A stretch of DNA of 64,000 nucleotides from a virus. Numbering within the stretch: the stretch's first letter is position 1; every line of letters begins with the position of its first letter. The notes below the pieces were generated by a model. The model was not told the DNA's origin and did no database searches. It saw only the letters and a list, made by a program, of their open reading frames with translations. Location: positions 123,488-187,487 of IMG/VR virus record IMGVR_UViG_3300027896_005002. One strand, given 5' to 3'. Below, in pieces: positions 9,532 to 22,518 of this stretch. Both the position numbers and the translations under genes were made by a program.

Positions 9532-9773
9532 TATCGAACTCCTCTGCATGCATGTTCACGAGTTCCGATTGCGAATTTTTTCATGACTTCTTTTGATTCC
9601 CGAGCTAAAGGTCCATGCCATTGGGACATATTGGCCAAAGAATAAAGTATTTGCGTTTTTAATCCATCAGTTCCATATTCATCGATTGCTCGAGGAATGG
9701 CCTTCAAATATGCAGCACCGATAGGATCCCTTACATTTTCTATAGCATTTTTGATGGCTTCATCGAGTGTCAT
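9531..9773 (-). CDS. hypothetical protein
   Basis: 80 aa, coupled to the downstream ligase gene. Confidence 0.3.
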   Translation of the reverse strand: MTLDEAIKNAIENVRDPIGAAYLKAIPRAIDEYGTDGLKTQILYSLANMSQWHGPLARESKEVMKKFAIGTREHACRGVR

Positions 9774-9785
9774 AATGTGGTAGTC

Positions 9786-10058
9786 CTATTTTGCTTTAAT
9801 GATTTCAACCGGAACGCCTTCGCAACTATCATGTTGTTGTCTATCAATTTTTGCATATTCGGTTTTGAGAGTTTCGATGATAGATGCCATTTTTTTCATG
9901 ATTACAGCTTTGTGATTTGCGCCTTTTCCCTGATTCCACATTTCACCGCCGATTGTAACGGCGTATTTTGCTCCACCATCATCATCCGATTCCGTAATAT
10001 TTACCCGAAATTTTCGAGTCTTTGTTACGAATACTTCAACCTTTGCTTTTTTAGCCAT
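9786..10058 (-). CDS. hypothetical protein
   Basis: 90-aa ORF. Confidence 0.3.
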   Translation of the reverse strand: MAKKAKVEVFVTKTRKFRVNITESDDDGGAKYAVTIGGEMWNQGKGANHKAVIMKKMASIIETLKTEYAKIDRQQHDSCEGVPVEIIKAK

Positions 10059-10229
10059 GATTTCCTCACGCCATCACTAAGGTTTTTGATTTTCTGGTTT
10101 TAGTCCGCTCATCCTTTTTGTACCAGCGATATGCCGTTGATTTGCTGATCGGTTTCGTGTTCGGTGAACAGGTTCCGTATTTTGAAGGCGATGTCCAAAT
10201 GCTGTTTTTCATAATTTCCTCTTTTTTTT

Positions 10230-10508
10230 TTAAGCATGAACCAAAGCTTGTTTCGTGTAGGAAGCCAAGGACCTACGACCGAATTTCCTACCTTGAACGC
10301 CGATAGATTCCAGGTGCTTGCAGTGGCCATGACGAATATTTCCACGGCAGGAACAAGTCCACCATTGGGCGCCAGGAGCATTGTCGTAAGAAACCATGTA
10401 AAGTTGATTGGAAGAAGACGACCGGACTTTGAATCTGACTTTGTAACGATCTGAATCCGGAAGAACCTCGACCGCTGTGTGCTGAATCCTGCTCATTAAA
10501 TCGTTCAT
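10230..10508 (-). CDS. SWIM-type zinc-finger protein
   Basis: WWTCSCRGNIRHGHCKHL fits the CxC...CxH SWIM pattern. AAGGAG SD. The bipartite promoter motif lies upstream. Confidence 0.35.
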   Translation of the reverse strand: MNDLMSRIQHTAVEVLPDSDRYKVRFKVRSSSSNQLYMVSYDNAPGAQWWTCSCRGNIRHGHCKHLESIGVQGRKFGRRSLASYTKQALVHA

Positions 10509-10540
10509 ATTTGCTCCTTATGGTTTATTGTTTCCTTTTT

Positions 10541-10594
10541 CCTATTAATTATAATCATGTTGACAGCGCGTACTGCGTTCAAAATGTGGCCGTT
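10541..10594 (-). promoter_or_regulatory. bipartite promoter-like element (GCGTTCAAAATGTGGCCGT plus TGATTATAATTAATAGG)
   Basis: The upstream motif and a TATA-rich extended -10-like box show the same spacing as at 13233, 14282 and 20461. It lies upstream of the minus-strand gene that starts at 10508. Confidence 0.45.
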
Positions 10595-10650
10595 CTTTCT
10601 ATGTATTTTTAACGTAGAAATACCGCCATTTTTTGACGACGGAAAGGAAA

Positions 10651-11421
10651 TCACCTATCAAGAATTGTAGTCTTTGAAATTGTTCCGCCTTGAGGTATTG
10701 AAATCAAATAACAGCCGTATTCTTTGCTATATTGACGGTGTATTTTGATGCCAGTTTTTTCCGAAGCGTATTCAATTGACCTATATGCATATGGAGGAAC
10801 TGCAATACTTCCATACATGGCATTCTTTTCCAAAAAGTCTAAAAGTTTGACGTAAAAATATGTTCCTTTTTTGGGAAGTGGGAAAAGAGTATTCTCAGTA
10901 GTGAACCTAGACTCTGTTCCTTGAACCAATTGATGTTTCCATTCTTTCCAATCGCCACTGATGATCCAATTGCACGGTTTTGGATAACCTTCAATGTGAT
11001 AGACACAAACATCAAGACCTGAAAGCGTTTTTACAATTGATCGAGAATAAAAATTGCCCGGTCGATTTTCATCATAACCTTCTAATCGATCCAAGAATTG
11101 GAAGTGGTCAACTTCAAAAACTTCGCCATGTACAAGATAATTGAAAGGATCTTGAAGGGTAATGAAGGGAAATCCTACCGTAAAATTAAACATTCGACCT
11201 CGGATTTTATCTTTACAAATAAATTTGCCATTAGAATTTTCCATTACCTGATAATTACTTAATCCACGTAAAAGAGTCCCATATACAAAGACGAGTTTCT
11301 TCATACTTTTATCTCGATTTTTTTGAAAGATTTTTCGATCATTGGCCTTACAATAACCGCAATTTGTGGCACTTTCTTGTGACCGATGTTTATGACCTTC
11401 ACGACAAAGATATATTGACAT
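10651..11421 (-). CDS. gamma-glutamyl cyclotransferase (GGCT/AIG2-like) domain protein with N-terminal zinc ribbon
   Basis: LVFVYGTLLRGLSNYQVM matches the GGCT N-terminal motif, followed by a conserved E (HGEVFEV). The C-terminal segment AYRSIEYASEKTGIKI is shared with the ORF at 22519. Confidence 0.55.
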   Translation of the reverse strand: MSIYLCREGHKHRSQESATNCGYCKANDRKIFQKNRDKSMKKLVFVYGTLLRGLSNYQVMENSNGKFICKDKIRGRMFNFTVGFPFITLQDPFNYLVHGEVFEVDHFQFLDRLEGYDENRPGNFYSRSIVKTLSGLDVCVYHIEGYPKPCNWIISGDWKEWKHQLVQGTESRFTTENTLFPLPKKGTYFYVKLLDFLEKNAMYGSIAVPPYAYRSIEYASEKTGIKIHRQYSKEYGCYLISIPQGGTISKTTILDR

Positions 11422-11547
11422 TTTTGATGTCCTCCATCATTTGATTTCGAAGAAATGTTTCCAAAGCTAATGCTGTTGAATGCGATATATGACCAGCTTT
11501 TGCAAGATCCCAAACACCCATAATTTGAAGAAGATATTTTTTGATAC

Positions 11548-11808
11548 TCATATCTGTTCCAAATAAGATTTGATTGATCTTTTGAAAATTTCCGTAGCTT
11601 CTTCTGCTCGCAAAGCTGGTACAACGCCACCATGAGATTGAAAAGCAGCGATGACATTGTCATTTTTATCTTCAATGTAGCCGTAGTAATGGCCTTGACC
11701 GAATTCACTTACCCTTTGCGTGAGTTTGCAGTAAAAGCCGTCGATTTCCTGAATGAGAGTGTGAAATGTAATTTTTTTGTCGAATATTGTCGCAAGGTCG
11801 TCGCTCAT
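11548..11808 (-). CDS. hypothetical protein
   Basis: The start is set at the MSDDLATIF methionine so that ATG overlaps the upstream TGA (ATGA). Confidence 0.3.
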   Translation of the reverse strand: MSDDLATIFDKKITFHTLIQEIDGFYCKLTQRVSEFGQGHYYGYIEDKNDNVIAAFQSHGGVVPALRAEEATEIFKRSIKSYLEQI

Positions 11809-12047
11809 AATGTGGCCGTACTTTCTTTGAACTGTCCGTAAGAGTCGCAAAAATTTTCCCAAACTCCAATGGGCAATTCAATGGTCGTTTTTTCGGAACC
11901 TTCGATAGCAATTGCTTTGACGATGGGCTCGCATAATTTCAGGAAGTTTTCAAATTCCTGTTTCATGCAAGTATAATCTTCAAAGCTGACGTATTTGCCA
12001 TTGTTTTCTTGCATCATGCAAGTTTTTACATCAAATCGTTTTACCAT
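11805..12047 (-). CDS. hypothetical protein
   Basis: 80 aa. GAGGAAAT SD upstream. Confidence 0.35.
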   Translation of the reverse strand: MVKRFDVKTCMMQENNGKYVSFEDYTCMKQEFENFLKLCEPIVKAIAIEGSEKTTIELPIGVWENFCDSYGQFKESTATL

Positions 12048-12054
12048 GATTTCC

Positions 12055-12468
12055 TCAGTTTAATTCATCGGGATTAGCGGTTTGCGATTCTTCGGCCGGC
12101 AAATTCGAAATCAAAGCATCGATTGCCTGTTGCCGTTCCAAAACCATCGCCTGATACGCTTCATAATCGTTTTGCGCCGGATTGGTCACCTTATAATCTT
12201 TCGTATAGGTGTGACCGGTTTTGCCATCCTCATTGACCCAAATATGAAAGCCGGCAGCATCGGCCTTTTTCGAAAGAACGCGTAGCTTGGAGCATTTTTC
12301 CTCGATCTTCGTATTGATCTCCGATTGCGTATCTTCATTACCGTCAGCTTCAGCAAATTCCACTTTGTGCTGGCCAATGGCTTTGTTGAGCATCCTATAG
12401 GCCTTGATGATTTGCAGGTTCGGGTCATCCGCGATTCCGCTTTTTGATACGATTTGTTTCGTCGCCAT
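12055..12468 (-). CDS. hypothetical protein
   Basis: 137-aa ORF in a locally GC-richer stretch. Confidence 0.35.
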   Translation of the reverse strand: MATKQIVSKSGIADDPNLQIIKAYRMLNKAIGQHKVEFAEADGNEDTQSEINTKIEEKCSKLRVLSKKADAAGFHIWVNEDGKTGHTYTKDYKVTNPAQNDYEAYQAMVLERQQAIDALISNLPAEESQTANPDELN

Positions 12469-12505
12469 ATCTTCTCCTTGTAAATGTGAACTGTGAACTT
12501 TTTTT

Positions 12506-13201
12506 TTACTTCGGATATTTGACCGCCGGTTGATACCTGCAAGCGGTTGTGACTTTTTCTACCGTTTCTTTTTGACCTTCCTCGATTGATTTCCGCATCT
12601 GGAAGTAATTGTACGAAAAATCTTCCGAGGGTTTCACCGTTTTGACTACATTGAAAAAATCGTTGTATCGATCAGCGAGAAGCGTTTTCAAAGCTTCAAC
12701 TTTTTCCGGGCGAAGGGTTGCGGTTTCAACAACCGTAAACATGATCTGGAATTTTTCCTTGAAGATTTTCTTCAAAGGTTCTTCCATTGCGATATCCATC
12801 GCGGAATATGATTCGCGGAATTGAATCTGCATCTGGGGTGGTTTGTAATTTTCTTCATCATCTTTGTCGGCACCTTTGATGTAAACCGTTTTGTAAAACA
12901 TATCATCGTTGAAAGCTTTTTCTTTTGCTTTTGCGGCCTCTTTTTTCAGAACATCTTCGAGCTCCACTAATTCCGTTTGCAAGTTTTCGATGTTCCGGGA
13001 AATTTCGATGCACTGATCAACGACGACTGTATAGGGTTTTTTTCCTTTATGATCTTCGGTTACCAAAGTGCAATCATCATCGAGAATGGGACTTTCAATA
13101 ATAAGTTTATCCTTATTGCGGTCGTTCTGGTTCTTTTTGCTACCAGCCAACTTAATGGCAGGCAAATCTTCAATTACGACCGGTGCTGCTTTTTTCTTCA
13201 T
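12506..13201 (-). CDS. hypothetical protein
   Basis: 231 aa. AAGGAGA SD. Promoter motif upstream. Confidence 0.4.
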   Translation of the reverse strand: MKKKAAPVVIEDLPAIKLAGSKKNQNDRNKDKLIIESPILDDDCTLVTEDHKGKKPYTVVVDQCIEISRNIENLQTELVELEDVLKKEAAKAKEKAFNDDMFYKTVYIKGADKDDEENYKPPQMQIQFRESYSAMDIAMEEPLKKIFKEKFQIMFTVVETATLRPEKVEALKTLLADRYNDFFNVVKTVKPSEDFSYNYFQMRKSIEEGQKETVEKVTTACRYQPAVKYPK

Positions 13202-13232
13202 ATATTCTCCTTTAAAAAAGTGATTTCCTTTT

Positions 13233-13284
13233 CCTATTTATATAATCAGTCATTTTTCACAAACCGCGTTCCAAAAGTGGCTGT
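13233..13284 (-). promoter_or_regulatory. bipartite promoter-like element (CCGCGTTCCAAAAGTGGCTGT plus TGATTATATAAATAGG)
   Basis: Conserved motif pair upstream of the gene that starts at 13201. Confidence 0.45.
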
Positions 13285-13409
13285 CGACCTAACTATTTAG
13301 TTATCCATGTTTTAGAAGAATCTGAATGGTTGTATATAGAACATAAATAAAAGTCGATGATAAAATGACACCAAAGATGAATTTGTATAATTTTCTCATA
13401 TTGCTCTCC

Positions 13410-14009
13410 TCAAGCGTTGTTTACTTTTAAGAATGCACGACAATTTGGACATCGAAATAACCAATATTCTATTGATGTGGGATCGTTTTCGTCTTTTATT
13501 TTAACAGTTATCAAATCTTTTTTTGCATATTTTCTACCACAAGCCGGACATTCATCTCTTTTTATTTGTAAATTTCCTCTATTTGTTTCCCATACTTGTC
13601 CAGGTTTGCTGTTTGATTGTATCTTTCTCCAAACTTTACCAGATGCCCAGTCATGCTGTGATTGTTGATATCGTTCAAACCGTTGTCGAGCTTGTTTTTC
13701 AACTCGATAAATCGCATTGAGTAAATTTGATCGCCAACCATTTACTCTGAGAACCTTTATAGTCCTTATCCAACCAATTCTATCTGTGATATTTACCGCG
13801 CATATGCGAATTGCATCCTGACCTTTTCCGCGACCGTTACCATTTTGTTTTGAAATTGATGAATATACTTTTATAATAATTTTTGGATTCTCAATCAAGA
13901 TTTTTTCATATACATATTCTCTGGTGGTTGAAGGTCCAGTAGCTTCTTCAAAAAAAAGATTTGCCATTACAACATTCATCTCGTTGAGAGTTATTACCGT
14001 ATAATGCAT
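13410..14009 (-). CDS. hypothetical protein with C-terminal zinc ribbon
   Basis: CPACGRK...CPNCRAF. AAGGAGAAAATA SD. Confidence 0.35.
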   Translation of the reverse strand: MHYTVITLNEMNVVMANLFFEEATGPSTTREYVYEKILIENPKIIIKVYSSISKQNGNGRGKGQDAIRICAVNITDRIGWIRTIKVLRVNGWRSNLLNAIYRVEKQARQRFERYQQSQHDWASGKVWRKIQSNSKPGQVWETNRGNLQIKRDECPACGRKYAKKDLITVKIKDENDPTSIEYWLFRCPNCRAFLKVNNA

Positions 14010-14274
14010 ATTTTCTCCTTATCGTCTTTTTGGTCTTTTGGAATTGTAACAAAGGAGTGCAGTAAATTACATCTTTTGTTTGCTTCATAATACGAGCGTG
14101 ATCAACCAACATATCAAATAGTTGGTAGCGACTTTCAGCAGATTTTGTTGTTTGAGAATAATTTCTATAAAATTTATCTGGAAAGGGATCATAAAGTACT
14201 TCAACTTTAACAGAAAATCTTTTTGTTTTAAAAGCTACTTCCGGAATTTTTGCCGTCAATTTAATTTTTTTCAT
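13948..14274 (-). CDS. hypothetical protein
   Basis: The start is set at MKKIKLTAK, with an AGGAGA box 7 nt upstream. The longer listed ORF would run through the promoter element. The 3' end overlaps the next gene by 62 nt. Confidence 0.35.
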   Translation of the reverse strand: MKKIKLTAKIPEVAFKTKRFSVKVEVLYDPFPDKFYRNYSQTTKSAESRYQLFDMLVDHARIMKQTKDVIYCTPLLQFQKTKKTIRRKYALYGNNSQRDECCNGKSFF

Positions 14275-14281
14275 TGTTTTT

Positions 14282-14410
14282 CTCCTATTATATATGATCA
14301 TGTCACTACGTGTTGTGCGTTCCAAATGTGGCTGTAGAAAAAAACAAATCTACGACTGCCATTTTTGGACCGCAATTAGTGGATTGATATGATTATATAA
14401 AATAGGAGAA
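14282..14410. promoter_or_regulatory. divergent promoter region with the bipartite motif in both orientations
   Basis: On the minus-strand side: TGCGTTCCAAATGTGGCTGT plus GATCATATATAATAGGAG. On the plus-strand side: GACTGCCATTTTTGGACCGC plus GATTATATAAAATAGGAG, ahead of the gene at 14438. Confidence 0.5.
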
Positions 14411-14437
14411 TGAAAACAATAAAAAAGGAATGATTAT

Positions 14438-15634
14438 ATGATAACAATCGGATGTGACCCAGAGTTCCTAGTACTCGGGCCCGATAACATGGTTAAAGGC
14501 TTCAACATCGGTCACAGTTGTCCCGCTGGAAATATTGGCACCGATCATGGTGGATCGGTTGGAGAATTAAGGCCAATGTATGGAACGCCCCGTCAGGTAA
14601 CCGAAAATATTCGGGAACTTTTTCGAATCATTCACACCAAAACTCCTCGCGATAAAATTGCTGCCGGTGGCGGTGAAAAATACGGTCATTCAATCGGTGG
14701 TCATATTCACTTTGGTGGAGTACAATTGGATCATACTTACGAATCTTGCACACGACAAAGAAATCGCGGACGAGTGAGACCCTTAACACTTGATCGTTCC
14801 AGGACAGTTCACAAATTAGTTTATATGCTCGATTATTATCTCGGTCGTCGGTTGAAAAAAATTGACGGCGGACAACGACCAAAATCAGCAAATTACGGTC
14901 GTTTATCTGACATCGAATCAAAAGGAACGGATCGATTCGAATATCGCACACCACCATCGTGGTTATCCGATCCGCAATTGACGGAATCCACTTTGGCAAT
15001 TTCATATCGGATCGCGGAAATGTGGAAAGAAAATCCGCGATGTTTCGATGAAATCATCAACCGAAACAAAAGCATCGCCCGAAAAAAAGAATATGGAGTT
15101 TTAATTCCCAATTCTGGTGATCAAAGAAATTACTACTCTGAACAAGTTGCAGCTTTTAAGCGAATAGCTTTTTCGAAAACATACCGAATGGACAATGCCA
15201 ATTGTTTGGACACATGGTTATCCGGTTCTCAAATCGCACAAATTGTCGATCGAATGTCGAAGAAGATTGCGTTGCAAATTTGCCAGATGAAATTGATAAC
15301 AAATCAGGACGGCATAGAATCAGAATCAGTCGTAAAAGTTTTGCGGTTTGCGGTACCTGAAGTAAAAATCATAGCACAGAGATTTAATTATCATCATGCT
15401 TTCCGGTCCCGAATTAAGGATGACACAATTTACATCAGCAAAAATTTGAGACCGTATCTTAAGGTAAAACGCGGGCATCACTTCCGAGTAAAATTTGCCC
15501 AATTTGACAACAACACTGTGGTTTATAAAACCGGCAACAGCAACATTTTGAATGAAGTAATAACAATTTTCGAAACCGGTGCAAGGAAAAAGCTTCGCAA
15601 AGCTGATGCAAATTTGATACCGGCTCAGTCATAA
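14438..15634 (+). CDS. putative amidoligase (glutamine-synthetase-like COOH-NH2 ligase, Amidoligase_2-like)
   Basis: N-terminal GCDPEF acidic strand and a GGHIHFGG His-rich loop recall GS-like amidoligases. This call is tentative. Context includes GAT-II (18641) and GGCT (10651) genes. Local GC content is higher than the flanks. Confidence 0.35.
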   Translation: MITIGCDPEFLVLGPDNMVKGFNIGHSCPAGNIGTDHGGSVGELRPMYGTPRQVTENIRELFRIIHTKTPRDKIAAGGGEKYGHSIGGHIHFGGVQLDHTYESCTRQRNRGRVRPLTLDRSRTVHKLVYMLDYYLGRRLKKIDGGQRPKSANYGRLSDIESKGTDRFEYRTPPSWLSDPQLTESTLAISYRIAEMWKENPRCFDEIINRNKSIARKKEYGVLIPNSGDQRNYYSEQVAAFKRIAFSKTYRMDNANCLDTWLSGSQIAQIVDRMSKKIALQICQMKLITNQDGIESESVVKVLRFAVPEVKIIAQRFNYHHAFRSRIKDDTIYISKNLRPYLKVKRGHHFRVKFAQFDNNTVVYKTGNSNILNEVITIFETGARKKLRKADANLIPAQS

Positions 15635-15705
15635 AAAAATGAAGAAATCTGGCCAAACTGTAAAAAACTGTTGATTATAAACATATACAAAAAGAGGAGG
15701 ATCAC

Positions 15706-16128
15706 ATGGCACAAGAAGTAATGCTTCAATTCGGAAATGATGATGAAGGCCTAAACTTGACCGGCACCGTCAATTTCCCAAATACGATTAACCTTCAAGG
15801 TCTCTCGGTCCTTTCAATCAAAGGTCTCGGGGAATGGCGTCATGCACCGGCCAATATCGTTCATATCAACGAACGAACGATTGAAACCTTCGGCATGAAG
15901 GAAAAGTCGAAGAATCTTTCGAAGGTTGGTCTCAATTGGATCGGAATCAAGGCCAACAGCGACATCCTTTTGGCGCATTCGCTGCGTCACGGTCGGACCG
16001 GAACGAAAAAGGTGCAGGATTTATTGACGAAGTTTTTCAAGGCCATCGGCGCTTCTTCCGTCAAATTCAGTATCCTGGACACCGAAAAAGAAATGGCCCA
16101 ACAGGCGGTACACGACGATAATCAGTAA
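15706..16128 (+). CDS. hypothetical protein
   Basis: 140 aa. Strong SD (AAGAGGAGG). Confidence 0.4.
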   Translation: MAQEVMLQFGNDDEGLNLTGTVNFPNTINLQGLSVLSIKGLGEWRHAPANIVHINERTIETFGMKEKSKNLSKVGLNWIGIKANSDILLAHSLRHGRTGTKKVQDLLTKFFKAIGASSVKFSILDTEKEMAQQAVHDDNQ

Positions 16129-16137
16129 TTCAGAAAC

Positions 16138-16165
16138 GGCCGTCCTAAATGGCGCCTGGACGGCC
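16138..16165 (+). terminator. GC-rich hairpin (GGCCGTCC-n12-GGACGGCC) after the gene ending at 16128
   Basis: Perfect 8-bp GC stem. No U-tract, so this may be an RNA stability or processing hairpin rather than an intrinsic terminator. Confidence 0.3.
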
Positions 16166-16218
16166 AATTCAATTGAACGGAATTTCCTTAACCAATAACA
16201 ACCTTCAAAGGAGGGAAT

Positions 16219-16542
16219 ATGGCGACAAAAAAACTTAAGTCGCTTAAGATCGAACGCAAAAAGAAAAAGGCCAAAAAGCAGGCAAAAATTCGCTTGACCA
16301 TCAAGGTCGCGAAAGTCGATCGCACGGCACGGAAAATCAAAGCCTTTGCGAAGAAATCCCTGAAATCAGCCATCAAGGGCCTCAAAGGCGCCAAGGTCAA
16401 AAAAATACCCGAACGCCTTTACCGGAAAATCGATGCCGCAATCGCCGGCAGCGCCGATCTCAAAACAATCGTCGACGAAGCCGTCGTCAAAATGGTCAAT
16501 GACAACCTTCTTCCCAAAAAGAAAGAAAAAGCGGAAGCATAA
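16219..16542 (+). CDS. lysine/alanine-rich histone H1-like DNA-binding protein
   Basis: KKAKKQAKIRLTIKVAKV ... AKKSLKSAIKGLKGAKVKK. SD AAAGGAGGG. Confidence 0.4.
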   Translation: MATKKLKSLKIERKKKKAKKQAKIRLTIKVAKVDRTARKIKAFAKKSLKSAIKGLKGAKVKKIPERLYRKIDAAIAGSADLKTIVDEAVVKMVNDNLLPKKKEKAEA

Positions 16543-16866
16543 ACCGTCATGGCCACTAAAAGAAAAAAGAAGGACACAAAATTGATTCCTTGTCCCGAAT
16601 GGAATGAGGATTCAAAATGTGTCCTTCCTTCTTGGGAAAGCAAAAAGTGTGGAAAGAACTACTGCAAAATATTACCACATGTTGAAAACAAAAATATAAT
16701 ATGATAAAATATTATAAGAACTATCCGGCGTAGAAAGGTCGACGTAACTGTCCCTTCAAAACTAACGGAGCTTATTAAGCATTGAAGTTAGCTACGCACT
16801 TGGTAATTGAAGAAACATCAATTACATTCACTTACTAGAAAACTTAAATTGATTTTGAAGAACTGA

Positions 16867-16904
16867 TTGAGACTGAGAATGCATGCTCGGTCTCAATTTT
16901 TTTT
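16867..16904 (+). terminator. rho-independent terminator
   Basis: TTGAGAC-tgagaatgcatgctcg-GTCTCAA followed by a T8 run, downstream of the plus-strand cluster at 14438-16542. Confidence 0.5.
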
Positions 16905-16923
16905 GAAATGATGACAACCACTT

Positions 16924-17979
16924 TTAGCGACCAGTTTTGTCAAGATAAATTGGGTCTCTCTGTTTCAAGAATAATCTGCCAAAACCAACAATATATCTTT
17001 CTATCATTGGCTTTATCACTATTCCCTCTCTCAATTTATCAATCATAAAACTTTGACTATGAGAAGCTTCAGGCAATGTCCGTCCATTCAACCAATCCTT
17101 TAATGAAATATACGTCGAAATTATAGGCACCCATATTGCTCTCAAACCTGTTCGATCTAATATAGGTTGAAGTTCATTATAACCCAAAGGCCGACCATTT
17201 ATATCTATATCAAACAACCTTGTCGTAAACTTCTTTAAATTATAATGATTACCTTGCACTCCAGGCCCTATAAACTCACTCCTTATAGTCACTGCACAAT
17301 TTGGATAAAATTCTGATTGTATTATTTGAGCGGCTACTATTAATCCTTCATTTTTTGCTACTTGCCAAAAAGAATGATCTTCATGATCTGGCAAATTAAC
17401 TATTCCATGACCATGTGTACAAACACTTATTGTCTCATCTATACCAACAAAAGTAGCCATATTGCTACCTTCAATCTTCTCTGTTATCCACACTAATTCA
17501 TTCATCAATATGTCAACAATATCAATATGAGTCTCACAATTCTCAATATCATAATTATAAACCATCTCAGGTCTCTGAATCAAATTACCTGTACTTGTAA
17601 TTATCTCTGGCGCTTCATATTTAGTAACTCCTATAGCTGCTGTCAAATCAGTTGGTAAAGTATCAGTTTTTAAATATGTTTTTACACTATCTATGGATGT
17701 AACTAGTCCTTGACTTATTTCACCACGTAAGCGAACAGTTTTGATTCTATTTTGATCTTTTCCAGACAAAAAATTCTTGATATTTTGTTGTTGGATAAAA
17801 CCTTCAGGTAATAAAGAATCTATAGGGAAATATATTATTTCGTCACCAGTTTTATATAGACCTTTGGGTATTACAAATTGATATGTCATATCCTCGACTT
17901 GACCTAATTCAAGTTTATCTGCATTTGGATGAGGATACACTTTCGACAATTTCTTTCTTTCAACAGCAAAGGTACTCAT
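16924..17979 (-). CDS. RNA ligase (Rnl5/NgrRnl-like) with N-terminal tRNA-binding-type OB domain
   Basis: The N-terminal YPHPNADKLELGQVED resembles the Trbp111/MetRS C-terminal OB motif. The nucleotidyltransferase domain has motif I EKIEGSN, motif IV NEGLIVAAQ, and a REGIVIKP motif. Confidence 0.55.
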   Translation of the reverse strand: MSTFAVERKKLSKVYPHPNADKLELGQVEDMTYQFVIPKGLYKTGDEIIYFPIDSLLPEGFIQQQNIKNFLSGKDQNRIKTVRLRGEISQGLVTSIDSVKTYLKTDTLPTDLTAAIGVTKYEAPEIITSTGNLIQRPEMVYNYDIENCETHIDIVDILMNELVWITEKIEGSNMATFVGIDETISVCTHGHGIVNLPDHEDHSFWQVAKNEGLIVAAQIIQSEFYPNCAVTIRSEFIGPGVQGNHYNLKKFTTRLFDIDINGRPLGYNELQPILDRTGLRAIWVPIISTYISLKDWLNGRTLPEASHSQSFMIDKLREGIVIKPMIERYIVGFGRLFLKQRDPIYLDKTGR

Positions 17980-18079
17980 TTTGATTCCTTTAGATAGATA
18001 TGTGTTTCTCCCTCCGGAACTTGATTTATTTTATGCGTCAACCAACAATTAATTTACGTCGAAGATTTTTATTTTTTCT

Positions 18080-18098
18080 ACGCGCCTAAAAGTGGCAG
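18080..18098 (+). promoter_or_regulatory. copy of conserved motif (CGCGCCTAAAAGTGGCAGT)
   Basis: Intergenic, about 100 nt upstream of the RNA ligase gene. Confidence 0.3.
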
Positions 18099-18193
18099 TT
18101 TGAACTCGAAAGTATTTCTCCCCCTATATAATATAAGGGACTCATCTTCAATTTCTTGAGAAGACAAGTCCCTTAATAAATAGGAGGAGGAAA

Positions 18194-18397
18194 TTATTTA
18201 AAAATATCTGTAGTGTCTATAACATGAACTCCCGTAGAATCAAATTGAAATTGAGGTTTAGGTGTCACTGGTTTTGGAAGTGGCACAAGAAGTATCTGAA
18301 TTTTGTCGAGATTTCTTTCAATTTTTTTCACAGAAACACTAATATTCAAAAGAGTAACTGTAATAATACAAAGTAAAATGACGATAATAACTTTCAT
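18194..18397 (-). CDS. small secreted/membrane protein
   Basis: 67 aa with an N-terminal hydrophobic segment. Confidence 0.3.
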   Translation of the reverse strand: MKVIIVILLCIITVTLLNISVSVKKIERNLDKIQILLVPLPKPVTPKPQFQFDSTGVHVIDTTDIFK

Positions 18398-18445
18398 ATA
18401 ATCCCTTTGGTTAAATCAGTTTCATAACGGAAATGAAAGGCAATT

Positions 18446-18640
18446 TCACGTGCATCTTTTGGAGACAAGCCTTTTGCTAATACCCACCCAAAAGCCAGAG
18501 AATACCAAATCTTGCTCTCGTGGTACTTCAATCGCAGTAGCTTTATCGGATACTTCTTGCTTAAAAGTTGTCTTTAAATCTTTGAGAAGAATTGTTCCGC
18601 TAGGAATAGTATATTTTGAATGAGCACCGGCGAACTTCAT
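18446..18640 (-). CDS. hypothetical protein
   Basis: 64 aa, immediately downstream of the GAT-II gene. Confidence 0.25.
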   Translation of the reverse strand: MKFAGAHSKYTIPSGTILLKDLKTTFKQEVSDKATAIEVPREQDLVFSGFWVGISKRLVSKRCT

Positions 18641-19600
18641 TTAATTATTTCCCTTTTTGTAAGTGATCTGTTTTGTGCCATTACTTCCGATTCGGACTAT
18701 TTTCGGTGAATTAGGATCCTTAGGATTTGATCCACATCCTCGAACTATCGTCGGCTTTGACTCTCTTGAAAAAGATGTAATGCCTATCGGCCGATTTGCT
18801 TGTGTCACTTTCCGATAATTATGATCGTATTGACTTGAGGATAAGGGAGAATCATCGCTTTCATCGGAGGTATAAGTTATTGTCGCAGCTTTTTTCTTCT
18901 TCTCCTCTATAACTCCCTTCCTCGAGAACTTATTTTTCACCACATCAAATTCCAGAAGTTCCCTTTCATAAAGGGTCGCAAAACTGATATTCGGGAATAT
19001 TCCCATTTCATTTTTCACTCCCAACGTCTTCAACATGATTTTCTTTGTGGAAGCAAAAAATATTATCCCATGATACATTGCCATACATAACGGTTTCCCA
19101 CCATCGGTATAAAAATACATTTTCTTCTGGGATTTCGAATACATCACCAAAGCTGCTGACCCTTCAATTGATGCTATTGCATTTTTGAGTGACGTTCTTT
19201 CCGTATAAGCGAGAATCGATTCTGAGTCGACATCACTTGTATATGGGTAATTTGCCAACTTATCTAAATGGACCGTTCCATTATGCACCAACACCCAATT
19301 TTTTGATTCAAATGGATGTGCATTTCGATTTTCTTTGATTGTTGCAAGACTAGATGAAGCATATCGGCAATGGCCGATTACAAATCGTTCATTGCCAATT
19401 GTCGGACTGACGAAATGTTCATTGACAAAATCTTTGGCACAAATGGAAGCTTTTATAATTCCAGTTCCGAGGGAATAATATCCGGTAGCATGCTCTCCGC
19501 GTTCTTGGGTATTTATCAAACCCTTAACAAAAAGGGAGTTCAAATCAAGATCAGTTGTCGTTTCTTTTGTTGGTTTAATCCATCCAAATATTCCACACAT
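18641..19600 (-). CDS. class-II (Ntn) glutamine amidotransferase domain protein
   Basis: Begins MCGIFGWI, with the catalytic Cys2 right after the initiator Met. NGTVHL and ..DSE.. segments are consistent with GAT-II. Long Ser-rich C-terminal tail. Confidence 0.55.
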   Translation of the reverse strand: MCGIFGWIKPTKETTTDLDLNSLFVKGLINTQERGEHATGYYSLGTGIIKASICAKDFVNEHFVSPTIGNERFVIGHCRYASSSLATIKENRNAHPFESKNWVLVHNGTVHLDKLANYPYTSDVDSESILAYTERTSLKNAIASIEGSAALVMYSKSQKKMYFYTDGGKPLCMAMYHGIIFFASTKKIMLKTLGVKNEMGIFPNISFATLYERELLEFDVVKNKFSRKGVIEEKKKKAATITYTSDESDDSPLSSSQYDHNYRKVTQANRPIGITSFSRESKPTIVRGCGSNPKDPNSPKIVRIGSNGTKQITYKKGNN

Positions 19601-19637
19601 CGTTTTTGTCTCCTTGTTAATATAATCAACAGTTTTT

Positions 19638-19775
19638 TCAATGACCGTTTCGTCTTTTTTGAAAATCTTCGACCCTTTGACTAACTCTACGAACTGACGC
19701 TTTTTGTTCGTCGCTTAAATGTTCGTAGCTACGACCGTAATGTTTCCTTGCTAATTCCTCATATTTTTCATTCAT
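19638..19775 (-). CDS. hypothetical small protein
   Basis: Start set at MNEKYEEL, which has a GAGGAAAA SD. Under the ORF-track cutoff. Confidence 0.25.
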   Translation of the reverse strand: MNEKYEELARKHYGRSYEHLSDEQKASVRRVSQRVEDFQKRRNGH

Positions 19776-20064
19776 GATTTTCCTCACAATCTTCGCAGTT
19801 TTTTTCCGAATGTGGACATTCTTCTTTTCCGCAAACATTTGATTCTTCTTCATCATTTATTTGCAGTTTGAGTTTTTCCACTACATCAAAAAGATTCGGT
19901 CCCATTGAAACAAATTCATTAGTAACTTGTTTGCCGTAAGCTTTCCATTGTTCATAAAGATGTGGATCAAGTCTGCGAAGAGCACTGCTAAGATCATTCA
20001 TTGCTGACTCAATGGTGTTTGCCAAAGACTGAATTTCATCAAAATCTTCTTGAATAAGACTCAT
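19768..20064 (-). CDS. acidic Cys-rich hypothetical protein
   Basis: 98 aa with a C-terminal CGKEECPHSEKNCEDCEE. Confidence 0.35.
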   Translation of the reverse strand: MSLIQEDFDEIQSLANTIESAMNDLSSALRRLDPHLYEQWKAYGKQVTNEFVSMGPNLFDVVEKLKLQINDEEESNVCGKEECPHSEKNCEDCEENHE

Positions 20065-20075
20065 AAATTTATCTC

Positions 20076-20450
20076 CTAAGCCGCATCAATGATTTGTAGA
20101 TTTTTTGCGAATTGTTCTCGTTCAATCCTCCAACGTTCGTTTGCCGCAGTTACCTTAGTCTCATATTCTGATTTCAATTGGTTCAGACAATTATCATGAT
20201 TTATGTCTGGATTGCCGATCCTCTCGTTTTGTTTGAGAGCAAAATAAACGGCATCGGCGTAAGCGGAATAACCAGGAGCTCCAGCATTTGATCGGGAAAG
20301 TTTACTAACTCTTTCCTTGACAATAACAATCCTGGCTTTCGGATATTTAACTCTTTCAGCCTTAATTTCTGCAAGAACGCTGTCTTTATCATAAGTCTTA
20401 TAAAGTCCTGTAAAATGTAATCCTTGACTTAAGGCTTCTTCATTTTTCAT
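20076..20450 (-). CDS. hypothetical protein
   Basis: 124 aa. An AGGAGG SD and the bipartite promoter lie immediately upstream. Confidence 0.4.
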   Translation of the reverse strand: MKNEEALSQGLHFTGLYKTYDKDSVLAEIKAERVKYPKARIVIVKERVSKLSRSNAGAPGYSAYADAVYFALKQNERIGNPDINHDNCLNQLKSEYETKVTAANERWRIEREQFAKNLQIIDAA

Positions 20451-20460
20451 ATTTTCCTCC

Positions 20461-20600
20461 TATTTATATAATCATGAATTCTCGTTATTGCGCGTCCAAA
20501 TGTGGCTGTCTCAACCTATCCACAAACCTAACCATTTTTCACGTAGATTACTACCACATTTTGACCCGCGTTCACGGAATATGATGATTATATTAATAGG
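20461..20600. promoter_or_regulatory. divergent promoter region with the bipartite motif in both orientations
   Basis: On the minus-strand side: GCGCGTCCAAATGTGGCTGT plus TGATTATATAAATAGGAGG. On the plus-strand side: CTACCACATTTTGACCCGCG plus TGATTATATTAATAGG, then AAAAGGAGG and the ATG at 20614. Confidence 0.5.
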
Positions 20601-20613
20601 AAAAGGAGGATTT

Positions 20614-20841
20614 ATGATTTATATGGGTGATGATTATAGCCGCAAAGATGATTGGTCAACGGTCCCTGAAAAAGTCCTGGAAGAATCCAAAAAATTGACC
20701 AATGAAAACACCGATAAAGAAGCTCTTACGGTCAATGATGACATTATGATCACCAATGGCGAAGCTCTGGAAGAAGCCGCAAACGAGGAAATGATGATGT
20801 CAATGTACGAAAACGGAAATCTACAACCCGAGGATTTATAA
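20614..20841 (+). CDS. acidic hypothetical protein
   Basis: Start set at the ATG with an AGGAGG box 4 nt upstream. 75 aa, rich in Glu/Asp. Confidence 0.4.
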   Translation: MIYMGDDYSRKDDWSTVPEKVLEESKKLTNENTDKEALTVNDDIMITNGEALEEAANEEMMMSMYENGNLQPEDL

Positions 20842-20844
20842 TTC

Positions 20845-21042
20845 ATGGAAACCATCGTTATCGATCTTATCAACTTCATTGAAAAATATTTCGGTGGTCG
20901 AGTTACTGATTGCGGCGGCGAATTCGTTGACAAAGAATGTGAATTTAGCTGTAAACAATATCATCAATGCAAACGAAATTATAACATGGCGGACGAACTT
21001 GAAGCTCTCAAAAAACGTGCACTTAAAAGGAGGAATATATGA
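20845..21042 (+). CDS. hypothetical Cys-rich protein
   Basis: 65 aa. Confidence 0.3.
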   Translation: METIVIDLINFIEKYFGGRVTDCGGEFVDKECEFSCKQYHQCKRNYNMADELEALKKRALKRRNI

Positions 21043-21374
21043 TCGGTAACAGCCCATTCGGTCAAATGGAAAAAGAAGCAGATCTTGACACAGCCCGGAG
21101 AATCATGGAAATTGCCGGAGCTGCCACAAACGAAGAAGCTGTGGCAAATGCCGGCGGCGAATTAACATTCTACCAACTTCAATACAAACTCGAGAAAGAA
21201 GGCCGAATTTCCATACGACCGATAATACCTACAGAAATATGTATCATTGATTCACTTGACCTCCTTCTCGAAGAAAGAGATGTCAAACTTGCTCTAAAAA
21301 TCCTCCATGAAGTTCGTGAAACTTTCTCTCGATACGATGAATACATGGAACTTGTCGGAGTCCTCGTCAAATGA
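21039..21374 (+). CDS. hypothetical protein
   Basis: 111 aa. AAAAGGAGG SD. ATGA overlap with the upstream ORF. Confidence 0.4.
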   Translation: MIGNSPFGQMEKEADLDTARRIMEIAGAATNEEAVANAGGELTFYQLQYKLEKEGRISIRPIIPTEICIIDSLDLLLEERDVKLALKILHEVRETFSRYDEYMELVGVLVK

Positions 21375-21904
21375 AGTTCAAAGACATCAAACAATTCCCT
21401 CAAATCTACTACAATGTCAACCTCTCATGGTCATCTCTTGACGACTGGCTTGCTCGTCAAATGAATATCGGTGAATACAAAAGTCAGAGAGAAGGCCTCT
21501 CCTCTCTCAACATCAATCCTGACTTTCAACGCGGCCACGTCTGGACTAAAGACCAACAAATCGCCTACGTCGAATTCATGCTTTGCGGCGGCACTTCCGG
21601 TCGCAATATCTACTTCAACCATCCAGGATGGATGTCATCCTTCAAAGGTGAATTCGTCCTTGTTGACGGTCTCCAACGCATTACTGCAGTCCAAGCTTTC
21701 ATGCACAATAAAATCCCAGCCTTCGGCTCTCTTATTGAAGACTACGAAGATAAAATGCCATACAATGTTGATTTCATAGTTAATGTGGCCAAACTCCAAA
21801 CACGAAAAGATGTCCTCAACTGGTACATACTCATGAACTCTGGCGGCACACCTCACACTCAAGAAGAAATTGACCGAGTCAAAACTCTCAAGGACCAACT
21901 ATGA
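21371..21904 (+). CDS. DUF262-type ParB/sulfiredoxin-fold nuclease domain protein
   Basis: FQRGHVW and VDGLQRITA match the DUF262 / DGQQR motif. Confidence 0.5.
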   Translation: MKFKDIKQFPQIYYNVNLSWSSLDDWLARQMNIGEYKSQREGLSSLNINPDFQRGHVWTKDQQIAYVEFMLCGGTSGRNIYFNHPGWMSSFKGEFVLVDGLQRITAVQAFMHNKIPAFGSLIEDYEDKMPYNVDFIVNVAKLQTRKDVLNWYILMNSGGTPHTQEEIDRVKTLKDQL

Positions 21905-22323
21905 AAATTATCAACATTGTCATCATTGATGATGACCCCAACATCCGCGATATGGTCAAACTCAACATCGGCAATGAAAACTTCAATCGAATAGCTGTCG
22001 CTTCTCACAGAAGTGACATCATTACTTATCTTTCTACTGCAGACTTCTACATCATCAACGCTCAACAACCAGACTACGACCTCTCTCTTTGGGAAACTCT
22101 TCACCTTCTCTCGAAAAAACTTGACGTCCCATTCAACAAATTACCTGTCGTCATCATGACTGACGGCTACTCCCTACCATTTGATCCACAACTACCCAGT
22201 TTTGAAAAACCATTTGACTTTCAACAATTAATCGTGGCCATCGTCAAACAACGACTTGATTATATAGAATACAAACTATTACCTCTTGCTATACACGGAA
22301 TAGGAAAATGGAGTATTAACTAA
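21901..22323 (+). CDS. CheY-like receiver (REC) domain protein, standalone, possibly atypical
   Basis: IVIIDDDPNIRDMVK acidic pocket, a conserved T (VVIMTDG) and K (EKPFD). The expected phospho-Asp position reads IINAQ, so it may be a pseudo-receiver. Confidence 0.5.
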   Translation: MKIINIVIIDDDPNIRDMVKLNIGNENFNRIAVASHRSDIITYLSTADFYIINAQQPDYDLSLWETLHLLSKKLDVPFNKLPVVIMTDGYSLPFDPQLPSFEKPFDFQQLIVAIVKQRLDYIEYKLLPLAIHGIGKWSIN

Positions 22324-22517
22324 TGATGACAAAAATATACAAAATCACAGGCTCTTCTGAAAAACGATCAACAACTGTCTACAGAAACAAACACGACATT
22401 CCTCGTACAATAGCATTATTAGAAAAATGTGGCTATCAAAACATCAATATTGAAGACATCATACTCAATCAAACACACGTCCATTACATTTTCCCAAACC
22501 TTAAAAAACTCAATTAA
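22323..22517 (+). CDS. hypothetical protein
   Basis: 64 aa. Confidence 0.25.
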   Translation: MMTKIYKITGSSEKRSTTVYRNKHDIPRTIALLEKCGYQNINIEDIILNQTHVHYIFPNLKKLN

Positions 22518-22518
22518 G

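What the first reader, a model, noticed from the sequence alone, without database searches (positions are those of the whole stretch)
10541..20600. Conserved bipartite promoter-like motif at cluster heads (8 motif copies in the first 24 kb, plus 2 divergent-strand copies)
Read in minus orientation the consensus is ACNGCCACWTTTGGAACGC, a 17-19 nt spacer, then TGATTATATAAATAGGAG(G), then the ATG. The full bipartite form is present upstream of the genes starting at 10508, 13201, 14274 and 20450. It also occurs on the opposite strand within the same divergent regions, upstream of the plus-strand genes at 14438 and 20614. Motif-only copies lie at 2942 (inverted orientation), 5764, 18080 and 23535. 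None occur after 24 kb. Fixed spacing to an extended -10-like TATA box points to a promoter class recognised by a specific sigma factor or activator. It may mark a temporal (early or middle) gene class, and the distribution suggests two differently regulated genome segments.
Basis: seen in the sequence. Interest (0 to 1): 0.6.

Follow-up and report, generated by a model that had tools for sequence, protein, structure and literature searches.

The report
Module-specific composite promoter of huge phages
The repeated motif is real and is most likely a roughly 60-bp two-part promoter heading every operon of one conserved 20-kb gene module in a clade of uncultivated huge phages; it is a new example of the familiar phage habit of using its own promoter code, not a new kind of element.

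Summary
Six full bipartite copies lie upstream of the genes starting at 10508, 13201, 14274, 14438, 20450 and 20614. Eight further upstream-box-only copies all lie within 2.9-23.6 kb. Nothing comparable occurs in the other 40 kb or in 18 kb of flanking genome.

The window comes from a 416-kb metagenomic huge-phage contig. The same composite is conserved in every relative I could fetch (amidoligase identity 33-60%, locus GC 0.34-0.49). Its consensus is aGGTTAnaCGGCCAyaTTTTGA, about 20 nt, TGAyTAynnnAyTAGGA. All 31 high-scoring full sites are intergenic and all point at a gene start.

The conserved downstream core is TGAyTA, not the TATA stretch. ORFs without a Shine-Dalgarno sequence start exactly 13 nt after its T. 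This places the start site at the A of TAGGA and gives sigma-70-like geometry: TTGAnn, 18-19 bp, TGAyTA, 7 nt, +1.

The TGAyTA box also occurs outside the module, whereas the upstream box is module-specific. Orphan upstream boxes are positionally conserved between relatives.

No RNA structure was found, no bacterial genome carries a cluster of the motif, and no recognising factor was identified. Verdict: a phage-specific promoter class, a new member of a known kind, of moderate interest.

The parts
10540..10597 (-). Full promoter for the operon starting at ATG 10508. Upstream box core GCCACATTTTGA at 10579-10590, -10-like TGATTA at 10552-10557, predicted +1 about 10543-10544.
   Evidence: (34.8 bits)
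13231..13288 (-). Full promoter for ATG 13201. Upstream box at 13270-13281, TGATTA at 13243-13248, predicted +1 about 13235.
   Evidence: (33.9 bits)
14283..14339 (-). Full promoter for ATG 14274. Upstream box at 14321-14332, TGATCA at 14295-14300, predicted +1 about 14286-14287. It is the left half of a back-to-back pair.
   Evidence: (25.1 bits)
14351..14408 (+). Full promoter for the amidoligase gene, ATG 14438. Upstream box at 14358-14369, TGATTA at 14390-14395, predicted +1 about 14403-14404.
   Evidence: (30.4 bits). The same divergent arrangement is conserved in L018, L020, L021, L023-L025, L028 and L029.
20457..20513 (-). Full promoter for ATG 20450. Upstream box at 20495-20506, TGATTA at 20469-20474, predicted +1 about 20461.
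   Evidence: (41.5 bits)
20546..20602 (+). Full promoter for ATG 20614. Upstream box ACCACATTTTGA at 20553-20564, TGATTA at 20585-20590, predicted +1 about 20598.
   Evidence: (42.9 bits)
2945..2956 (+). Orphan upstream box with no TGAyTA partner at the left edge of the segment. It faces inward, 52 nt from the 3' end of gene 3004-3414, and sits next to a GTAGAG/GAGATCTC repeat field.
   Evidence: (18.2 bits)
5767..5778 (-). Orphan upstream box in the 178-nt gap upstream of gene 5325-5639. It has the strongest box score in the window.
   Evidence: (26.6 bits)
10625..10636 (+). Orphan upstream box inverted relative to the 10508 promoter, with centres 48 bp apart. It points into the 3' end of gene 10651-11421.
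   Evidence: (18.3 bits). The same inverted-partner layout occurs in L020 (3750/3652) and L024 (3698/3600).
18085..18096 (-). Orphan upstream box 110 nt upstream of the RNA ligase gene (ATG 17979).
   Evidence: (15.5 bits)
23541..23552 (-). Orphan upstream box at the right edge of the segment. It faces inward, 18 nt past the stop of gene 23258-23527.
   Evidence: (22.9 bits)
7447..7458 (-). Weak upstream-box match inside gene 7232-7819. Status doubtful.
   Evidence: (15.2 bits)
3559..3579 (-). Downstream box alone (CATGATTATACTAATATGGAA), with an ATG at the predicted +1 (3564) opening a 47-codon ORF.
   Evidence: (23.1 bits)
7185..7205 (-). Downstream box alone, upstream of ATG 7179.
   Evidence: 19.4 bits
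6940..6953 (-). TGATTA (6948-6953) placed 13 nt before ATG 6940 of the conserved 167-aa gene. Inferred leaderless start.
28759..28774 (-). Downstream box outside the segment. TGATTA at 28767-28772 lies 13 nt before ATG 28759 of the 976-aa ORF, with no Shine-Dalgarno sequence.
2945..23552 (.). The motif-bearing gene module: amidoligase, glutamine amidotransferase, gamma-glutamyl cyclotransferase, DNA/RNA ligase-like genes and many ORFans. GC is 0.38, against 0.30-0.32 in its neighbours on the left and right flanks.

Best explanation
It is a composite promoter with two separable parts.

The downstream part, cATGAyTAynnnAyTAGGA, is this phage clade's core promoter. TGAyTA acts as the -10-like element at about -13 to -8. 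A 7-nt AT-rich stretch follows. Transcription starts at the A of TAGGA. This part is used all over the genome, sometimes directly abutting an ATG to give leaderless mRNAs.

The upstream part, (GGTTAna)CGGCCAyaTTTTGA, covers roughly -52 to -34. Its TTGA lies where a -35 element would be, 18-19 bp upstream of TGAyTA. It is added only at the operon heads of one conserved ~20-kb module (amidoligase, amidotransferase, cyclotransferase, ligases). That makes the module a separately controlled regulon.

What is shown: sequence, position, orientation, spacing, conservation and segment restriction.

What is inferred:
- That RNA polymerase initiates there.
- That the start site is at TAGGA.
- That recognition needs a phage-specified factor: either a sigma-70-family protein whose region 4 reads the TTGA-containing box, or an activator sitting at the -35/-45 position.

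Orphan upstream boxes without a core promoter are probably extra binding sites for the same factor. Their role is unknown; insulation, titration and recombination joints are possibilities.
For: (1) Position. All 31 high-scoring full sites in the window and six relatives are intergenic and aimed at a start codon. In 29 of them the box centre is 40-80 nt from the ATG. About 80% of the DNA is coding, so this placement is far beyond chance (order-of-magnitude estimate).

(2) Coupling. The box-to-box spacing takes only two adjacent values (15 and 9 of the 24 seed sites). The intervening sequence is not conserved.

(3) Conservation. The composite is present at several operon heads in every relative fetched, down to 33% amidoligase identity and across locus GC 0.34-0.49.

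(4) Start site.
- In 82 kb of the source genome, 7 ORFs of at least 60 aa begin exactly 13 nt after the T of TGAYTA. Each other offset from 6 to 23 has 0 or 1.
- These include the 976-aa ORF at 28759.
- In L025 a 225-aa gene has its ATG at that position. Its N-terminus aligns residue for residue with homologues that have normal leaders.

(5) Not RNA. RNAalifold on 36 sites predicts 0 conserved pairs.

(6) Not a general bacterial signal. A scan of one genome from each of 185,579 species gave 42 singleton hits. My rough estimate from the information content of the pattern was about 50 by chance. No genome had a cluster, and no hit scored above 26 bits.

(7) Module restriction.
- The genuine metagenome hits whose gene content I checked all carry the same gene families.
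- No upstream box occurs in the 18 kb flanking the window.
- No further full site occurs in 9 kb beyond the module in the L028 contig.

(8) One relative (L025) encodes a sigma-70-family protein next to the module.

(9) Orphan boxes are constrained. L020 and L024 are about 70% identical in coding DNA but share a 39-bp island of 97% identity around one orphan box. Four or five orphan boxes sit at equivalent positions in the two loci.
Against: - There are no transcript data, so the start site and promoter activity are inferences.
- No sigma factor, RNA polymerase or convincing DNA-binding regulator was found in the 82 kb of this genome that I could read.
- None of the conserved unknown module proteins matches Pfam, PHROGs or PDB sequences.
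- TGAyTA lacks the A(-11)/T(-7) pattern that sigma-70-type -10 elements need in any register that also fits the inferred start site. The polymerase may therefore not be of that type.
- An 18-19 bp spacer is at the long end for sigma-70-family promoters.
- The weight matrix favours ATG at the TAGGA position because A and G are shared, so part of the offset-13 signal is selection bias. One search, which uses only TGAYTA, does not have this bias.
- The genome scan used a narrow pattern and would miss a degenerate host consensus.
- The host is unknown.
Confidence: 0.8

Rival explanations
1. These are ordinary host-polymerase promoters. The host's housekeeping sigma reads TTGAnn as -35 and part of the AT-rich downstream box as -10. 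The extra conservation is an UP-like or strength element, and no phage factor is involved.
For: - TTGA, the four best-conserved -35 bases, is nearly invariant.
- It sits 18-19 bp from TGAyTA.
- The six bases after TGAy read TAnnnT in about 70% of sites, by my count from the listings.
- No phage sigma or polymerase gene is seen in 82 kb of the genome.
Against: - TAnnnT as the -10 would put the start 3 nt inside the start codons of the leaderless genes.
- The register that fits the start site (TGAyTA or GAyTAy) lacks canonical -11A/-7T in GC-rich relatives.
- The generic sigma-70 scan does not pick these sites out, and its hits are no more frequent than in shuffles.
- The 20-nt upstream box is conserved across phages of GC 0.34-0.49 and is absent from other promoters of the same genome.
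- No sequenced bacterial genome shows the composite more than once.
Confidence: 0.2
2. The upstream box is an operator for a DNA-binding regulator (repressor or activator), independent of the polymerase. The promoter proper is only the downstream box.
For: - The two boxes occur separately. Downstream-only sites head genes at 3564, 6940, 7179, 28759 and elsewhere. Upstream-only sites are about as numerous as full sites.
- Orphan boxes are conserved between L020 and L024.
- Boxes often come in inverted pairs 27-107 bp apart, even when only one side has a core promoter.
- In L024 and L020 one promoter has a perfect box about 31 bp further upstream than usual.
Against: - The box is asymmetric, with no dyad or direct repeat.
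- Its distance to TGAyTA is fixed to 1 nt in all full sites, which suits direct contact with the transcription complex.
- Pair spacings show no helical phasing (my reading of the distances).
- No regulator was identified.
- This reading overlaps with the activator version of the best explanation rather than excluding it.
Confidence: 0.35
3. The repeats are mainly recombination linkers, like the PeSL cassettes of T4-type phages. Conserved promoter cassettes would serve as homology patches for gain, loss and shuffling of gene cassettes, and orphan boxes would be scars of such events.
For: - The segment is rich in ORFans.
- Operon cassettes are arranged differently in each relative.
- A 4.1-kb PolX-ligase cassette present in L020 and absent in L024 has upstream boxes at the joints, and L024 keeps a lone box at the empty site.
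- PeSLs are described as ~100-bp promoter plus stem-loop motifs in hyperplastic regions (PMC2839356, PMC4122927).
Against: - Only one indel was examined.
- Breakpoints at operon boundaries are expected under any promoter model.
- No conserved stem-loop is part of the cassette.
- Orphan boxes conserved at 97% within unalignable DNA look selected rather than like scars.
- This is an evolutionary side effect compatible with promoter function, not an alternative to it.
Confidence: 0.25
4. The upstream box alone is a complete promoter for a phage single-subunit or other non-canonical RNA polymerase, and the downstream box is a 5'-UTR signal.
For: - The box with its flank is a ~20-bp asymmetric, highly conserved sequence, as T7-type promoters are (my own knowledge).
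- It occurs on its own.
- The downstream box occurs next to start codons inside operons, for example at 19630.
Against: - Many orphan boxes point straight into a terminator hairpin or the 3' end of a convergent gene.
- The length-conserved but sequence-free spacer has no explanation at the RNA level, and there is no conserved RNA structure.
- Leaderless genes sit at a fixed distance from TGAyTA with no upstream box anywhere near.
- No such polymerase gene occurs in 82 kb.
Confidence: 0.05

Closest known systems
Temporal promoter classes of large lytic phages. Examples from my own knowledge: T4 early, middle (MotA box) and late (TATAAATA, gp55); Bacillus phage SPO1 gp28 and gp33/34 promoters; the phiEco32 gp36 promoter.
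   Same: - A phage-specific consensus longer than and different from the host's.
- It is placed at operon heads.
- It defines a co-regulated gene set.
- A -10-region element is used with or without an upstream element.
   Different: - The consensus matches none of these.
- TATAAATA occurs in only 2 of the 6 window copies and vanishes in relatives.
- The upstream box is confined to one ~20-kb module rather than to a large early or late genome arm.
- The recognising protein is unknown.
PeSL promoter/terminator cassettes of T4-type phages (PMC2839356, PMC4122927)
   Same: - Conserved 60-100-bp regulatory cassettes repeated through an ORFan-rich, plastic region.
- Each ends in a Shine-Dalgarno sequence and start codon.
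- One cassette indel here has boxes at its joints.
   Different: - PeSLs are sigma-70-like promoters with an integral stem-loop. Here the -10 is non-canonical and no stem-loop is part of the unit.
- Mini-circle formation and recombination were not tested here.
- Half-elements (orphan upstream boxes) are not a described PeSL feature.
Class II activator-dependent or sigma-appropriated promoters (general bacterial and phage transcription knowledge)
   Same: A conserved element overlapping or replacing the -35 region at a fixed distance from the -10 region, with a poor canonical -35.
   Different: No activator was identified. The element is asymmetric. Binding was not tested.
Leaderless transcription units (common in Actinobacteria, Deinococcus and archaea; occasional in phages)
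   Same: ATG at the inferred +1, no Shine-Dalgarno sequence, and a fixed distance to the -10-like element.
   Different: Here they coexist with strongly Shine-Dalgarno-led genes in the same genome. They are inferred from sequence only.

Membership tests
Housekeeping sigma-70/sigma-A promoter | -35 hexamer resembling TTGACA | tested here: met
   TTGA (TTGG or TGGA in some window copies) is the most conserved part of the upstream box.
Housekeeping sigma-70/sigma-A promoter | -10 hexamer TATAAT with A at -11 and T at -7, ending 5-8 nt before +1 | tested here: not met
   With +1 at the A of TAGGA, the hexamer in register is TGAyTA or GAyTAy. TAnnnT lies only 3 nt from +1. The generic sigma-70 scan does not single these sites out.
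Housekeeping sigma-70/sigma-A promoter | Spacer of 17 +/- 1 bp | tested here: inconclusive
   18-19 bp between TTGAnn and TGAyTA. This is possible but long.
Extended -10 promoter (TGnTATAAT) | TG exactly one base upstream of the -10 hexamer | tested here: not met
   TG is followed by Ay and then TAnnnT, which is two bases. That hexamer is also incompatible with the inferred start site.
T4-type late promoter (gp55) | Invariant TATAAATA at -10 and no upstream element | tested here: not met
   The exact 8-mer occurs only at the 13201 and 20450 copies. Relatives have TACTCTAT and similar. A conserved upstream element is present.
T7-type single-subunit RNA polymerase promoter | One contiguous ~20-bp conserved block from -17 to +6, and a phage gene for the polymerase | tested here: not met
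   There are two blocks separated by an unconserved ~20-nt spacer. No such gene is present in the window or its flanks. The remaining ~330 kb of the genome was not seen.
Sigma-54 promoter | GG and GC doublets 10 bp apart (TGGCAC-N5-TTGC) | tested here: not met
   GGCCAC...TTGA is 2 nt too short and lacks the GC doublet (read from the sequences).
Bacteroidota -33/-7 promoter | TTTG, 19-21 bp, TAnnTTTG; genes usually without Shine-Dalgarno sequences | tested here: not met
   TTTG is present, but TAnnTTTG is absent and the distance is about 25 bp. AGGAGG ribosome sites are ubiquitous.
PeSL cassette | Repeated conserved promoter cassette in an ORFan-rich plastic region | tested here: met
PeSL cassette | Stem-loop terminator as an integral part of the motif | tested here: not met
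   0 conserved pairs in 36 aligned sites. Terminator hairpins lie near orphan boxes, but at variable distance.
PeSL cassette | Recombination between cassettes causing indels or mini-circles | tested here: inconclusive
   One PolX-ligase indel between L020 and L024 has boxes at the joints. Mini-circles cannot be tested here.
Structured cis-regulatory RNA (leader or riboswitch) | Conserved secondary structure with covariation, or a match to a described family | tested here: not met
   No Rfam match in the window. RNAalifold finds no consensus structure.

The most novel reading that the evidence does not exclude
The amidoligase/amidotransferase/ligase module may be a self-contained regulon carried between huge phages, with its own promoter code. 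Under this reading the upstream box is read by a specificity factor encoded in or travelling with the module. The conserved orphan boxes at operon ends and module edges, facing inward and next to CGTAGA-type repeat arrays, would be functional. They could act as insulators or polymerase roadblocks, as promoter-terminator bridging sites, or as the joints at which cassettes are exchanged.
Probability: 0.2. Interest if true: 0.6.

Novelty: new member of a known kind. Interest (0 to 1): 0.42.

Why it matters
Huge phages are known almost only from metagenomes, and nothing is known about how they schedule their hundreds of genes. A clade-wide promoter consensus has three uses.
- It gives a likely start site, a separable upstream element and a set of predicted leaderless genes, which together offer a concrete way to annotate transcription units in these genomes.
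- It helps delimit a conserved but functionally obscure module. The phiEco32-type amidoligase system has been predicted to make or attach peptide-like modifications (my recollection of the literature, not checked here).
- It makes the specificity factor findable by DNA pull-down or by co-occurrence.

It does not change any general concept, because phage-specific promoter classes are classical.

Tried and rejected
- Nucleotide search of GenBank phages with the 11-kb region: no match.
- tblastn of the amidoligase against GenBank phages: no match.
- The only GenBank relatives are uncultured huge phages LR756500 and LR756501, found through the vault-like protein. LR756500 has GC 0.24 and lacks the motif.
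- Exact 16-mer scan of IMG/VR: 16 unrelated singletons.
- Amidoligase search in IMG/VR: nothing.
- tRNA and Rfam scans of the window: nothing.
- Generic sigma-70 and terminator scans: no enrichment over shuffles.
- Search for the recognising factor. Pfam or PHROGs on about 60 window proteins found no sigma factor or polymerase. The only hints were a weak HTH_11 at 4643-5074, a weak receiver domain at 21901-22323 and an AP2-like domain at 45-677.
- PDB sequence searches with four single proteins and four family profiles gave nothing significant.
- The N-terminal fragment of the L025 sigma gene found no homologue in the held DNA of the source genome, and only one fragment in the protein database.
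- Helical phasing of inverted box pairs was considered and dropped. The spacings run from 27 to 107 bp and are not periodic.
- Readings as sigma-54, ECF (GGAAC), Bacteroidota and archaeal TATA promoters were considered from the sequence and rejected. The reasons were spacing, non-conservation in relatives or ubiquitous Shine-Dalgarno sites.
- Structure prediction was not used. The conserved unknown proteins could only have been submitted without their locus-derived alignments.

Full report
**Where the window comes from.** The amidoligase gene at 14438-15634 is found, residue for residue, on a 415,903-bp ENA metagenome contig (ERZ27247850, k141_2484546). The window corresponds to about 123.4-187.4 kb of that contig. 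The genes are phage-like and mostly unknown. GenBank phages share only distant proteins, the nearest being uncultured huge phages. No tRNA or Rfam family is present.

**Checking the observation.**
- GCCACWTTT occurs ten times, all within the first 24 kb. Its reverse complement is the most over-represented 9-mer of that region, with 7 copies against 0.38 expected.
- I built a two-block weight matrix, 22 of whose 24 seed sites come from relatives. With it the six full sites score 25-43 bits, against a maximum of 17 in shuffled windows.
- Fourteen upstream boxes score above 14 bits in the 20.7-kb segment, against 0.33 expected. The remaining 40 kb holds one, against 0.72 expected.
- The 10 kb to the left and 8 kb to the right of the window in the same contig hold none.
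There are four more box-only copies, two of them doubtful. The 22425 match is probably chance.

**Relatives.**
- Homologues of the amidoligase at 33-60% identity exist on metagenomic contigs of up to 326 kb. I fetched eight loci.
- All show the same gene families, in different orders: amidoligase, two small conserved proteins after it, class-II glutamine amidotransferase, gamma-glutamyl cyclotransferase, ligase-like proteins and several conserved unknowns.
- All carry the same composite motif at several operon heads, including the back-to-back pair in front of the amidoligase.
- The clade consensus is aGGTTAnaCGGCCAyaTTTTGA, then about 20 unconserved and often GC-rich nt, then TGAyTAynnnAyTAGGA. 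The last block drifts by lineage: TAGGA, TAAGAAGG, TGAGGAG.

**Behaviour as a promoter.**
- At stringent thresholds, 31 of 31 full sites are intergenic although about 80% of the DNA is coding.
- All 31 point to a start codon, and 29 have the box centre 40-80 nt from the ATG.
- The distance between the two blocks takes only two adjacent values, while the sequence between them is free. This is what one expects if one protein complex touches both.
- An RNA-level explanation is unlikely. RNAalifold finds no conserved pair in 36 aligned sites, and in divergent pairs there is no room for promoters further upstream.

**Start site.**
- In L025 a 225-aa gene has its ATG inside the downstream box, exactly where TAGGA normally has AGG. 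No ribosome-binding site is possible there. Its N-terminus aligns residue for residue with homologues that have ordinary leaders.
- I searched simply for TGAYTA followed by an ORF of at least 60 codons. In 82 kb of the source genome, seven ORFs start exactly 13 nt after the T. Every other offset from 6 to 23 has none or one.
- These ORFs include the 976-aa ORF at 28759 and the conserved 167-aa gene at 6940. Three more cases occur in relatives.
- I read these as leaderless mRNAs starting at that A.
- The resulting geometry is TTGAnn at about -37 to -32, an 18-19-bp spacer, TGAyTA at -13 to -8, a 7-nt discriminator, and +1 at the A of TAGGA.
- This is the layout of a sigma-70-family promoter, but the -10 sequence is not TATAAT-like in that register. 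The TAnnnT that follows TGAy is too close to the start site to be the -10.

**Two separable parts.** The TGAyTA box also occurs without the upstream box, both inside the module (3579, 7205, 6953, 19630) and outside it (28774, 39859, 55443, and both flanks). The upstream box occurs only in the module. The downstream box is the general core promoter of this phage.

**Orphan upstream boxes.**
- About as many upstream boxes lack a core promoter as have one: 32 against 31 at the thresholds. Of these, 25 are intergenic.
- Fifteen point at the 3' end of a gene, often next to an intrinsic terminator hairpin. Several are the inverted partner of a full promoter in the same gap.
- In the window, the two outermost boxes (2945 plus strand, 23552 minus strand) face inward and bracket the segment. 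The segment has GC 0.38, against 0.30-0.32 for most of the surrounding DNA.
- The orphans are not mere debris. L020 and L024 are about 70% identical in genes but keep a 39-bp island of 97% identity around one orphan box, and four or five orphans sit at equivalent positions.
- A 4.1-kb PolX-ligase cassette present only in L020 has boxes at its joints, and L024 keeps a lone box at the empty site. This recalls the PeSL cassettes of T4-type phages (PMC2839356, PMC4122927), but it is a single case.

**Who reads it.**
- A scan of one genome from each of 185,579 bacterial and archaeal species found 42 singleton matches. My rough estimate from the information content of the pattern was about 50 by chance. 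No genome had a cluster.
- The JGI metagenome scan returned 91 loci, of which 81 had no strong full site. The genuine hits whose gene content I checked all carry the same gene module.
- Together with conservation across GC 0.34-0.49, this favours a phage-specified factor. The scan pattern was narrow, however, and the host is unknown.
- One relative has a sigma-70-family gene beside the module.
- In the 82 kb of the source genome that I could read, I found no sigma factor, polymerase or clear regulator.
- The conserved unknown proteins match nothing in Pfam, PHROGs or PDB sequences.

**Comparison and verdict.**
- The element works like the promoter classes of large lytic phages and resembles PeSL cassettes in its distribution.
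- It fails the defining features of housekeeping, extended -10, T4-late, T7-type, sigma-54 and Bacteroidota promoters, and of structured RNAs.
- It is a new member of a known kind: a phage-specific composite promoter. Its less usual traits are restriction to one conserved module, conserved orphan half-sites, and coexistence with leaderless starts.
- I put 0.8 on promoter function and about 0.5 on a phage-encoded specificity factor. Overall interest is about 0.4.

Noticed in passing
window 2330-3003: A ~670-nt stretch without ORFs at the left edge of the module is packed with repeats. There are at least four AGAGATCTCA units (palindromic core GAGATCTC), four (T)AGAGyGTAGAGA units and a 24-nt inverted repeat at 2641-2699. 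It ends at the orphan upstream box at 2945. It could be a replication origin or a regulatory hub.
   Followed up: partly
window-wide and all related loci; e.g. window 10613, 14349, 18077, 20542, 28775-28790; L021 380-545: The hexamer CGTAGA/TCTACG is 4.9 times denser in intergenic than in coding DNA across the clade (1.86 against 0.38 per kb). It often lies in the promoter spacer (-29 to -19) or just upstream of the boxes. In L021 a 3-4-copy iteron-like array containing it directly precedes an orphan upstream box. It is possibly the site of a second regulator.
   Followed up: partly
window 2080-2320: This looks like an Xre/Cro-type helix-turn-helix gene (…GLTQKSFAKKIGISATHLTSLKRK…PSLKLICKISNKFNIDPAFI…) broken by two frameshifts at A-runs. 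It is either a pseudogene or an assembly error. The reading is by eye from the sequence.
   Followed up: no
window 25829-28759 (minus strand): A 976-aa ORF in a GC-poor stretch (0.26-0.30) contains long internal tandem repeats (periods 243 and 192 nt, 25857-26866). It gives only weak helicase hits. Its ATG sits at the predicted +1 of a TGATTA box, and two TCTACG copies lie just upstream.
   Followed up: partly
window 30747-33212 (minus strand): An 821-aa protein has major-vault-protein shoulder and repeat domains (Pfam E = 7e-21). It is 43-44% identical to proteins of the 462-kb and 735-kb uncultured huge phages LR756500 and LR756501.
   Followed up: partly
window 59074-60312 (plus strand), with 60309-61016: A TnpB-like gene (OrfB_IS605 plus a Cas12f-like TNB domain). 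No search was made for its guide RNA or transposon ends.
   Followed up: no
window 51906-51999: A perfect 46-nt tandem duplication. Each copy carries a downstream-box look-alike (AATGATTATATATATAGGTAG) on the minus strand.
   Followed up: no
window 16219-16542 and 10230-10508: A 107-aa protein with 34% Lys+Arg (pI 10.6) follows the amidoligase in all nine loci. The 92-aa first gene of the 10508 operon has a SWIM-like CxC...CxH motif (my reading of the sequence). Either could bind nucleic acid, and the Lys-rich protein could be the amidoligase substrate.
   Followed up: no
L020 12998-17089 versus L024 12824-13291: A PolX plus NAD-dependent ligase cassette is present in one of two otherwise collinear relatives. 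Upstream boxes lie at both joints and a shared terminator lies beyond.
   Followed up: partly
L025 1-246; L029 13866-16436: A sigma-70-family gene (regions 2 and 4) lies next to the module in one relative. Another relative has an 856-aa protein with a weak type-IX-secretion sorting-domain hit. That would hint at a Bacteroidota host, but it conflicts with the strong Shine-Dalgarno usage.
   Followed up: partly
window 61033-62184, 62374-63153, 50001-50930; L027: RNA-repair and nucleotide-related genes cluster to the right of the module: an RlaP-type nucleotidyltransferase, DUF5131 and radical-SAM proteins, a cytidylyltransferase-MazG fusion, and Thg1 just outside the window. An RNA ligase also lies inside the module (16924-17979).
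   Followed up: no
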